From Promethearchaeati archaeon SRVP18_Atabeyarchaeia-1 (GTDB taxonomy: Archaea; Asgardarchaeota; Atabeyarchaeia; Atabeyarchaeales; Atabeyarchaeaceae), in assembly GCA_037308085.1 (NCBI GenBank), contig CP147779.1, positions 448,001 through 512,000 of the forward strand: a DNA stretch of 64,000 nt, in the 5' to 3' direction. Each line of letters begins with the position of its first letter. The stretch's first letter is position 1. Both the position numbers and the translations under genes were made by a program. Shown in pieces: positions 15,769-15,981 of the stretch. Below the pieces are notes generated by a model. That model saw only the letters and a program-made list of their open reading frames with translations. It was not told the origin of the DNA and ran no database searches.

Positions 15769-15981
15769 TGGTAGCGGGGGAGTCCTCCCGCGGGCGTAGA
15801 TCCCGCGGATGGAGTCCCACCGTGGGCGCTGGTCCCACGGATTTGAACCATCGATCTCAGGGTATCCCAGCGGAAAGTCATATGAGCCGTCCGCAGGAGC
15901 AATCTCCTACTGCGGGATTTCCTGAGTTGGCCAGCCTACTCCTTCGCCCTCTGTGAGTAGGGGTGTCTACCCTACCCCGCT
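15769..15981 (-). tRNA. Initiator tRNA-Met(CAT) with five BHB introns
   Basis: Exons join to AGCGGGGTAGGGTAG|TCAGGAAATCCCGCAG|GGCTCATA|ACCCTGAGATCGATGGTTCAAA|TCCA|TCCCCCGCTACCA; A1-U72 and three G-C pairs in the anticodon stem. Confidence 0.88.

What the first reader, a model, noticed from the sequence alone, without database searches (positions are those of the whole stretch)
15782..15841. Two adjacent tRNA introns are diverged copies of each other
Seen: introns 4 and 5 are both 28 nt (TCCGTGGGACCAGCGCCCACGGTGGGAC and TCCGCGGGATCTACGCCCGCGGGAGGAC), 21/28 identical, with a compensatory T-A to C-G change in the stem. Inference: a snapshot of intron gain by local duplication or re-insertion 4 nt away, with selection on structure.
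Basis: seen in the sequence. Interest (0 to 1): 0.7.

Follow-up and report, generated by a model that had tools for sequence, protein, structure and literature searches.

The report
tRNA intron copied next door
In the only initiator-tRNA gene of a wetland Asgard archaeon, a 28-base intron was copied to a site four bases downstream, and a close relative keeps a fresher version of the copy, giving a dated example of how archaeal tRNA genes gain introns.

Summary

**The gene.** Window 15769-15981 (minus strand) is the single initiator tRNA-Met gene of Atabeyarchaeia-1. It has five intervening sequences and is missing from the published tRNA table.

**The two introns.**
- Intron 4 (15814-15841, position 59/60) and intron 5 (15782-15809, position 63/64) are both 28 nt.
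- Both have the layout 1 nt + 7-bp stem + 7-nt loop + 4 nt + 2 nt.
- They are 21/28 identical and separated by the 4-nt exon TCCA.

**Is it chance?**
- They are the top pair among 62 introns of this genome.
- They are each other's best 28-mer match genome-wide.
- The similarity beats dinucleotide shuffles (0/20,000) and structure-preserving shuffles (63/200,000).

**Relatives.**
- A metagenome relative (L010) carries both introns at 23/28 identity.
- Three more distant relatives have only intron 4, as a 30-nt form.
- The inferred ancestral copies differ only in the two bases that must pair with the new upstream exon.

So intron 5 is a young paralogue of intron 4. It was gained before the own/L010 split and later tuned, with compensatory stem changes.

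**Open points.**
- How the copy was made is unresolved. A simple tandem duplication does not fit. I favour DNA-level templated copying at TCC/CCA microhomologies over RNA re-insertion.
- Splicing is not shown, because no RNA data were available.

The parts
15769..15981 (-). Initiator tRNA-Met gene: 213 nt, CCA encoded, six exons and five intervening sequences. It is the only iMet-like gene found in the genome.
   Evidence: A1:U72, G29-G31:C39-C41 and the CAU anticodon are read from the sequence. After removal of the intervening sequences aragorn calls tRNA-Met(CAT). A regex scan of the genome finds one candidate. The gene is not in the published tRNA table of this genome.
15927..15966 (-). Intervening sequence 1 in the D-loop, about 40 nt. 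Its boundaries are uncertain by a few bases and it has no strict BHB.
   Evidence: It sits between conserved exon blocks in five orthologues. A 40-nt excision gives a 76-nt tRNA with an 11-nt D-loop. The BHB scan finds no good register.
15889..15909 (-). Intron 2, 21 nt, at position 29/30 in the anticodon stem.
   Evidence: The central helix CCGC/GCGG is 4/4 and the inner helix is 5 bp, read from the sequence with the rule used.
15864..15880 (-). Intron 3, 17 nt, at the canonical position 37/38.
   Evidence: The central helix CUCA/UGGG is 4/4 (sequence). It is identical in L010.
15814..15841 (-). Intron 4, 28 nt, in the T-loop at 59/60, with a strict hBHBh' motif. It is the donor copy.
   Evidence: The BHB scan gives H 4/4, outer helix 5 bp (the T-stem itself) and inner helix 7 bp. 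Orthologues exist in all five lineages.
15810..15813 (-). 4-nt micro-exon TCCA (tRNA positions 60-63) between introns 4 and 5.
   Evidence: Sequence; mature-sequence bookkeeping.
15782..15809 (-). Intron 5, 28 nt, in the 3' strand of the T-stem at 63/64, with a relaxed BHB. It is the lineage-specific copy of intron 4.
   Evidence: It is 21/28 identical to intron 4. The register that gives the correct tRNA has H 3/4, outer helix 3 bp and inner helix 7 bp. It is absent in G001, G002 and L011 and present in L010.
15757..15768 (-). Decayed extra copy of the 3' exon (TCCCCCCGCTAC) directly after the encoded CCA.
   Evidence: Own sequence: ACCA|TCCCCCCGCTAC|TGT. L010: ACCA|TCCCCGCTTAAT. There is no such copy in G001, G002 or L011. 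So it is shared only by the clade that carries intron 5.

Best explanation
Intron 5 is a young paralogue of the neighbouring intron 4.

**Proposed history**
1. In the common ancestor of Atabeyarchaeia-1 and the L010 lineage, after the split from G001, the T-loop intron was remodelled. It went from a 30-nt form cut at 58/59 to a 28-nt form cut at 59/60.
2. This 28-nt unit was then copied into the same gene four bases downstream, between A63 and U64.
3. The copy kept the hairpin. It changed the two bases of its 4-nt 3' strand (TGGG to GAGG) that must pair with the new upstream sequence.
4. Both copies then drifted under selection for the stem, which accounts for the compensatory T-A to C-G change in this genome.

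**How it works**
- Both copies are bulge-helix-bulge introns, presumably cut by the two-paralogue splicing endonuclease EndA and rejoined by RtcB.
- Because only 4 nt of exon separate them, they must be removed one after the other.

**How the copy was made (inferred)**
The most likely route is DNA-level templated copying during replication slippage or break repair. It would have been guided by the TCC and CCA microhomologies that flank both introns and the 3' exon.

**Shown and inferred**
- Shown: homology of the two introns, lineage-specific presence, structural conservation, and presence of the enzymes.
- Inferred: the direction and order of events, the actual splicing, and the copying mechanism.

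The confidence given (0.8) is for the paralogous-copy statement. For the DNA-level route alone I would say about 0.5.
For: **Homology**
- Reciprocal best match genome-wide.
- Top pair of 1,891 intron pairs.
- Shuffle tests.
- 23/28 identity in L010, with only 2/22 differences in the hairpin part. That is as close as orthologous copies of intron 4 are to each other.
- The majority-rule ancestors differ at 2/28 positions, both in the H' strand. Only 1 of 200,000 structure-preserving shuffles reaches that.

**Gain in one clade**
- Intron 5 is absent in G001, G002 and L011 and present in own and L010.
- An L010-type contig with exactly 8 differences and no gaps was also seen in an independent wetland run.
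- Own and L010 are sisters.

**Donor**
- Intron 4 is the only similar sequence in this genome and in G001 and G002.

**Structure**
- Covariation in the stem.
- Intron 4 has a strict BHB and intron 5 a relaxed one.

**Function retained**
- Exons differ at 1/79 positions between own and L010, while introns 4 and 5 differ at 8/56.
- It is the only iMet gene in the genome.
- Two EndA paralogues and one RtcB are present.

**DNA-level route**
- No reverse transcriptase (RVT_1) match in the closed genome.
- TCC follows and begins both introns.
- A second local duplication, the relic 3' exon copy, occurs in the same clade only.
- Two other tRNA genes of this genome show local copying that includes exon sequence.
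Against: - No RNA data, so splicing of intron 5, or of any of the five, is not shown.
- The best strict BHB around intron 5 would excise 26 nt and leave two extra bases. The register that gives the correct tRNA has one mismatch in the central helix. It is 2.5 kcal/mol less stable than the 26-nt register while intron 4 is present.
- A simple tandem duplication does not fit: the copies lie 32 nt apart but only 28 nt were added. The DNA route therefore needs at least two template switches or two events.
- The phylogenetic bracket rests on five sequences. L010 is a 1.1-kb contig placed by one locus only.
- With the hairpin architecture, the composition and the end bases all taken as given, the own-genome pair alone reaches only P of about 0.004.
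Confidence: 0.8

Rival explanations
1. RNA-level re-insertion ('reverse splicing'). EndA cut a pre-tRNA at a BHB-like fold at 63/64. RtcB ligated an excised intron-4 RNA into the gap. The product was reverse-transcribed and recombined into the chromosome. Its terminal CCA mispaired with the internal C61-C62-A63, which stranded the old 3' exon downstream.
For: - The copy is exactly one intron unit (28 nt) with no exon sequence attached.
- The model explains in a single event both intron 5 and the relic 3' exon copy placed right after the CCA.
- EndA and RtcB are present.
- There is a precedent in the intron transposition inferred for Thermoproteales (Fujishima 2010, as cited in PMC4033280).
Against: - No RVT_1 match in the closed genome.
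- The Asgard-wide preprint found only three credible reverse transcriptases in its panel and no reverse-transcription signature at gains.
- All relatives already encode CCA, so the CCA is not diagnostic.
- Other local repeats in this genome's tRNA genes include exon sequence, which intron re-insertion cannot produce.
Confidence: 0.2
2. Convergence. Two unrelated introns look alike only because both must form a GC-rich BHB hairpin beside similar exon sequence (TCC).
For: - Both start with U + CC and end in GAC, as several other introns of this genome do.
- With architecture, composition and ends all fixed, the own-genome pair alone gives P of about 0.004, which is not overwhelming.
Against: - The 7-nt loops, which have no pairing role, match at 4/7 positions in this genome and 6/7 in L010.
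- The similarity rises, rather than falls, in the relative and in the inferred ancestors.
- No other intron of the genome resembles either copy.
- The two share the same length and architecture, while intron 4 in other lineages is 30 nt.
Confidence: 0.03
3. Intron 5 is ancient and was lost precisely in the G001, G002 and L011 lineages. Its likeness to intron 4 is kept up by gene conversion between the two copies.
For: - Precise intron loss is known in archaeal tRNA genes. [quoted passage not shown]
- Within-genome pairs are slightly closer than cross-genome pairs in L010: 2 against 3-4 hairpin differences.
Against: - It needs two or three independent exact losses against one gain.
- Intron 5 shares the derived 28-nt layout of the own-clade intron 4, not the 30-nt form of the other lineages.
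- The relic 3' exon copy has the same restricted distribution.
Confidence: 0.07
4. Assembly artefact or dead gene. The duplicated hairpin is a mis-assembly, or the five-intron gene is a pseudogene.
For: - tRNAscan-SE did not call the gene in the genome paper.
- Logan contigs of one run break between 15780 and 15841.
Against: - The same arrangement, with diverged sequence, occurs in an independent JGI contig (L010) and in a contig of another wetland run.
- The exons are almost invariant across five lineages while the introns vary.
- No other iMet gene exists in the closed genome.
Confidence: 0.02

Closest known systems
tRNA intron 'transposition' families of Thermoproteales (Fujishima et al. 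2010, Mol Biol Evol 27:2233; described in PMC4033280)
   Same: - Short BHB introns more than 70% identical are found at different tRNA positions.
- The gain is late, with absence in relatives.
- The new site has to offer a BHB-compatible fold.
   Different: - Here donor and copy lie in the same gene, 4 nt apart, rather than in different tRNA genes.
- The family has only these two members in the genome.
- The host is an Asgard archaeon. A recent census found almost no cross-gene intron families in Asgard lineages: 1.5% against 28% in Thermoproteales.
Heavily interrupted tRNA genes of Atabeyarchaeia and Freyarchaeia (Valentin-Alvarado et al. 2024, PMC11291895; Goswami et al. 2026 preprint, 10.64898/2026.10.13.758758)
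   Same: - It is the same genome and the same phenomenon: multiple non-canonical introns, D-arm insertions that annotation misses, up to five per gene, and many gains on terminal branches.
   Different: - This iMet gene is absent from the published table for Atabeyarchaeia-1.
- The preprint tested copying between tRNA types, mobile elements and reverse transcription. It concluded that the route of arrival is open.
- Its main text has no match for 'tandem', 'adjacent', 'iMet' or 'initiator'.
Spliceosomal intron gain by local tandem duplication in eukaryotes (from my own knowledge; not checked here)
   Same: A local duplication creates a new spliceable unit because the duplicated segment carries its own splice signals.
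   Different: - The splicing chemistry is entirely different: protein endonuclease plus ligase acting on an RNA fold, not a spliceosome.
- The copy here is not a simple tandem repeat.

Membership tests
Archaeal bulge-helix-bulge (BHB) tRNA intron | Its removal restores a canonical tRNA cloverleaf. | tested here: met
   Removing 28+28 nt gives the T-arm and acceptor sequence that the relatives without intron 5 have once intron 4 is removed. aragorn calls tRNA-Met(CAT) on the spliced product.
Archaeal bulge-helix-bulge (BHB) tRNA intron | Two 3-nt bulges separated by a 4-bp helix at the exon-intron junctions, or an accepted relaxed form. | tested here: inconclusive
   Intron 4 is strict (H 4/4, h 5, h' 7). 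Intron 5 is relaxed in the productive register (H 3/4, h 3, h' 7). A competing perfect BHB would cut out 26 nt and give a wrong product.
Archaeal bulge-helix-bulge (BHB) tRNA intron | Excised in vivo by EndA and the exons joined by RtcB. | not testable with these tools
   The enzymes are encoded: two EndA paralogues and one RtcB. No RNA run holds the locus.
Transposed tRNA intron family (Thermoproteales type) | Intron sequences more than 70% identical at different positions. | tested here: met
   75% in this genome and 82% in L010.
Transposed tRNA intron family (Thermoproteales type) | Members sit in evolutionarily distinct tRNA genes. | tested here: not met
   Both copies are in the same iMet gene. 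There is no further copy in this genome, in G001 or in G002.
Simple tandem duplication | The spacing between copies equals the length added. | tested here: not met
   The copies are 32 nt apart, but the gene gained 28 nt relative to a form with intron 4 only.
Multi-copy mobile mini-element (MITE-like) | Many dispersed copies in the genome. | tested here: not met
   Only the two copies occur within 8 mismatches of 28, apart from one unrelated 8-mismatch hit.

The most novel reading that the evidence does not exclude
Local templated copying inside tRNA genes, of introns and of flanking exon pieces and guided by short microhomologies, may be a recurrent route by which Atabeyarchaeia tRNA genes gain and remodel introns. 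It would be invisible to the published tests, which looked only for copying between different tRNA types.

Besides iMet, two other genes point this way:
- The T-loop intron of elongator tRNA-Met is present in own and G001 and absent in G002. Its ends duplicate the adjoining exon.
- The core of the tRNA-Leu(UAA) T-loop intron in this genome resembles another insertion in the same gene.
Probability: 0.35. Interest if true: 0.75.

Novelty: new variant of a known kind. Interest (0 to 1): 0.62.

Why it matters
How archaeal tRNA genes acquire introns at unusual positions is an open question. [quoted passage not shown] A 2026 census of Asgard genomes concluded that the route of arrival 'remains open' after testing inter-gene copying, mobile elements and reverse transcription (10.64898/2026.10.13.758758).

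This locus identifies several things together:
- the donor, intron 4;
- the copy, intron 5;
- the empty site, seen in three relatives;
- a second lineage with a less diverged copy;
- the two substitutions that fitted the copy to its new exon context.

That makes the arrival step concrete and testable in vitro with the organism's own endonuclease. The locus also shows that the essential initiator tRNA gene of this genome escaped annotation. Its maturation needs ordered removal of two introns around a 4-nt exon.

Tried and rejected
**Expression**
- The look-up of sequencing runs listed no RNA holder for the locus.
- Read laying could use DNA contigs only, so it says nothing about transcripts or splicing.

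**Known RNA families**
- Rfam at a permissive threshold gave nothing meaningful over the region. The best match was HgcF at E 0.64.

**Wider search for the hairpin**
- The pattern TCYGNGGGAYNNRCNCCCNCR was searched in 400 Asgard genomes.
- Besides intron 4 in G001 and G002 and introns 4 and 5 here, it hit a conserved sequence in one other family.
- That sequence lies antisense inside a tRNA gene, does not form this hairpin, and is unrelated.

**Origin of intron 4 itself**
- A resemblance between the start of intron 4 and the end of intron 3 (TCCG-TGGGAT) is not significant. 599 to 1,840 of 5,000 shuffles score as well.

**Intervening sequence 1**
- No strict or consistent BHB register was found in any of the five orthologues. 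aragorn accepts many excisions. Its boundaries are therefore given only approximately.

**Alternative splice choices in the T-arm**
- I looked for 26+30 nt or other combinations that would rescue the perfect 26-nt BHB of intron 5. None gives the conserved mature sequence.

**Simple duplication models**
- 28-nt and 32-nt tandem duplications, and a 45-nt duplication of intron 4 plus the 3' exon, were worked through by hand. None reproduces the present order without a further 4-nt change.

Full report
**Where we are.** The window carries archaeal rRNA genes with insertions, RNase P RNA and a few detectable tRNAs. It is G000:C1:448001-512000 of a closed 2,808,651-bp genome. aragorn hits in that genome fall at exactly the coordinates listed for 'SRVP_Atabeyarchaeota_1' in Supplementary Data 4 of Valentin-Alvarado et al. 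2024. The organism is therefore the wetland Asgard archaeon Atabeyarchaeia-1.

That paper reports introns in 92-95% of tRNA genes of these genomes. Only three genomes of the class are held: this one, G001 (same genus, probably MAG LC30) and G002 (Atabeyarchaeia-2, CP147780).

**The gene.** On the minus strand, 15981..15769 reads AGCGGGG...CCCCGCTACCA.
- It has A1:U72, G29-G31:C39-C41 and a CAU anticodon, the marks of an archaeal initiator tRNA.
- It is the only such gene that a pattern scan finds in the genome.
- It is not among the 40 tRNA genes published for this genome, whereas the Atabeyarchaeia-2 orthologue is listed with three introns.

Comparison with four orthologues and with an Asgard iMet gene that carries a single intron defines five intervening sequences:

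| Intervening sequence | Length | Position | Note |
|---|---|---|---|
| 1 | about 40 nt | D-loop | boundaries uncertain, no strict BHB |
| 2 | 21 nt | 29/30 | |
| 3 | 17 nt | 37/38 | canonical position |
| 4 | 28 nt | 59/60 | |
| 5 | 28 nt | 63/64 | |

After their removal aragorn calls tRNA-Met(CAT). A 2026 preprint already reports up to five intervening sequences per gene in these families, so the number itself is not new.

**The observation.** Both are 28 nt, they are 21/28 identical without gaps, and the exon TCCA separates them. Both parse as one bulge base, a 7-bp stem, a 7-nt loop, a 4-nt strand (H') and two bulge bases.
- Under the cutting rule validated on the canonical intron 3, intron 4 has a strict BHB. 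T-loop bases 54-57 pair with H', and the T-stem itself is the outer helix.
- Intron 5 has a relaxed BHB in the only register that yields the conserved mature sequence (H 3/4, outer helix 3 bp, inner helix 7 bp).

**Is the likeness chance?**
- Among 62 introns of this genome (60 published plus these two) the pair ranks first of 1,891 pairs. Its identity is 0.75 and its alignment score 14, against 7 for the next pair.
- Across all 5.6 million 28-mers of the genome, intron 5 is the single best non-self match to intron 4, and the reverse also holds. They lie 32 nt apart on the same strand.
- No dinucleotide shuffle in 20,000 reaches 21/28.
- Shuffles that keep the hairpin layout and the composition of each part reach it 63 times in 200,000. 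With the end bases also fixed they reach it 716 times in 200,000.

**Relatives.**
- G001, G002 and metagenome contig L011 have introns 1-4 but no intron 5. Their sequence runs ...AAATCCATCCCCCGCTACCA after intron 4.
- Their intron 4 is 30 nt and ends G[G/A]A[C/T]AAA. Its best productive register is at 58/59.
- Metagenome contig L010 has both introns at 23/28 identity, with only 2 differences in the 22-nt hairpin part.
- A contig with the same eight differences from this genome and no gaps appears in an independent wetland run.
- The 5' 140 nt of the gene, which do not include introns 4 and 5, differ at 10/140 positions between this genome and L010. They differ at about 30/146 from each of the other three.

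Three features are therefore shared derived states of one small clade: intron 5, the 28-nt form of intron 4, and a decayed extra copy of the 3' exon just after the CCA (own TCCCCCCGCTAC, L010 TCCCCGCTTAAT).

**What changed after the copy.**
- Majority-rule ancestors of the two introns differ only at positions 23-24 (TGGG against GAGG). These lie in the strand that must pair with the four bases upstream of the 5' bulge.
- At the new site GAGG makes three pairs, where TGGG would make two (sequence).
- The stem shows covariation across the seven copies. 98% of cells are paired, and pair 5:19 occurs as UA (four copies), AU, CG and GC.
- The C-G pair is specific to this genome's intron 5, because L010's intron 5 still has T-A.
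- Exons differ at 1/79 positions between this genome and L010, against 8/56 in introns 4 and 5.

**How it probably works.** The genome encodes two EndA paralogues, consistent with the broad-specificity two-subunit enzyme, and one RtcB. With a 4-nt exon between the introns, cutting all four sites at once would release a tetranucleotide, so removal must be sequential (inference).

Energy evaluation does not settle the order:

| State | Productive 28-nt register | Non-productive 26-nt register |
|---|---|---|
| Intron 4 still present | -18.3 kcal/mol | -20.8 kcal/mol |
| Intron 4 removed | -12.9 kcal/mol | -7.6 kcal/mol |

The minimum-energy fold of the whole precursor puts both required cut sites next to symmetric 1x1 mismatches in a rod-like helix. 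None of this is backed by RNA data.

**How the copy arose.**
- A plain tandem duplication is excluded. The repeat period is 32 nt, but only 28 nt were added.
- The copy is exactly one intron unit. TCC begins both introns and both downstream exons, and CCA ends both the micro-exon and the gene.
- No other copy exists in this genome or in G001 and G002, so intron 4 is the only candidate donor.

Two routes remain:
1. DNA-level templated copying, by replication slippage or break repair with template switches at the TCC/CCA microhomologies.
2. RNA-level insertion of an excised intron by EndA and RtcB, followed by reverse transcription.

I favour the first route for three reasons:
- No reverse transcriptase domain is found in the closed genome.
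- The same clade has a second small local duplication, the relic 3' exon copy.
- Other tRNA genes here carry local repeats that include exon sequence, which intron re-insertion cannot make.

Details of those other genes:
- **Elongator tRNA-Met.** Its T-loop intron is present in this genome and G001 and absent in G002. It begins with a copy of the upstream exon segment AGATCGCG and ends with a copy of ATCCGGAGA.
- **tRNA-Leu(UAA).** The core of the T-loop intron in this genome, but not in G001 or G002, resembles another insertion 71 nt upstream in the same gene. 2 of 5,000 shuffles score as well.
- **Overall count.** Three of 39 tRNA genes reach 21/28 in an internal-repeat scan that 0.6% of random 213-nt windows reach.

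**Earlier notes of this scan.**
- One note on this genome pointed out the 3' exon copy (e1-5499228). I checked its distribution in the relatives.
- Unchecked notes on other archaea describe intron gains accompanied by a stranded 3' exon copy. They prompted the cassette reading, intron plus replacement 3' exon, that I list under the RNA rival. I did not test those notes.

**Comparison with the literature.**
- The closest known phenomenon is intron transposition between tRNA genes in Thermoproteales. This case shares the sequence likeness, the late gain and the need for a BHB at the new site. It fails the 'different genes' criterion.
- The Asgard census preprint tested cross-type copying at 80% identity or more and found almost none. 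It states that the route of arrival is open. Its main text has no match for 'tandem', 'adjacent', 'iMet' or 'initiator'.

I therefore rate this a new variant of a known kind. It is well supported as a paralogous intron gain. It is unresolved as to mechanism and unproven as to splicing.

Noticed in passing
window 15769-15981 (minus): The five-intron initiator tRNA-Met gene is missing from the published tRNA table of Atabeyarchaeia-1. That table lists 40 genes and no iMet. The Atabeyarchaeia-2 orthologue is listed with three introns, and its D-loop insertion was not counted.
   Followed up: yes
window 15757-15768 (minus); L010:701-712: A decayed extra copy of the 3' exon (T64 onwards) lies directly after the encoded CCA. 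It is found only in the two lineages that carry intron 5. It has one C too many here and one too few in L010, so it is no longer usable as an acceptor strand.
   Followed up: partly
G000:C1:810394-810565 (L026:445-616); G001 copy at L031 minus strand, positions 1504-1669 on the reverse complement; G002 copy L027:474-601: Elongator tRNA-Met(CAU) has a 40-43-nt T-loop (59/60) intron in this genome and G001 but not in Atabeyarchaeia-2. The intron starts with a copy of the upstream exon segment (AGATCGCG...) and ends with a copy of ATCCGGAGA. It looks like an intron born from local duplication of exon sequence.
   Followed up: partly
G000:C1:810063-810246 (minus; L026): In tRNA-Leu(UAA) the core of the T-loop intron (GGGGCGCAGACTAGACTCGAATGAAA) resembles an unannotated insertion in the variable-arm region of the same gene, 71 nt upstream (local score 22; 2 of 5,000 shuffles as good). 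G001 and G002 have a different T-loop intron core.
   Followed up: partly
L002, L003 and L011 intron 4 against window 15814-15841: The orthologous T-loop intron changed its cut position and length between lineages. It is 30 nt at 58/59 with H = GUUC pairing to GGAC, GAAC or GAAU (covarying). In this clade it is 28 nt at 59/60 with H = UUCA pairing to UGGG. In the 30-nt form the intron is flanked by a 7-nt direct repeat, CAAATCC.
   Followed up: partly
window 16860-17753 (+): A free-standing ORF of 297 aa with a LAGLIDADG_3 domain (E 1.9e-6) lies about 0.9 kb from the iMet gene, inside a cluster of intron-rich tRNA genes. Whether it has any role in breaks or repair at these loci is unknown.
   Followed up: partly
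window 16213-16430: Contigs of relatives and L010 share conserved blocks upstream of tRNA-Ala(UGC). These probably belong to another heavily interrupted tRNA gene: tRNA-His sits at this place in Atabeyarchaeia-2. This genome's copy differs in length there. It is not annotated at this place in the published table.
   Followed up: no
L019:1440-1560 and about 28 genomes of one other Asgard family: A conserved 21-mer, TCCGAGGGATAAACCCCCGCA, lies antisense within an interrupted tRNA gene in many genomes of one Asgard family. It matched my hairpin pattern by chance and was not examined further.
   Followed up: no
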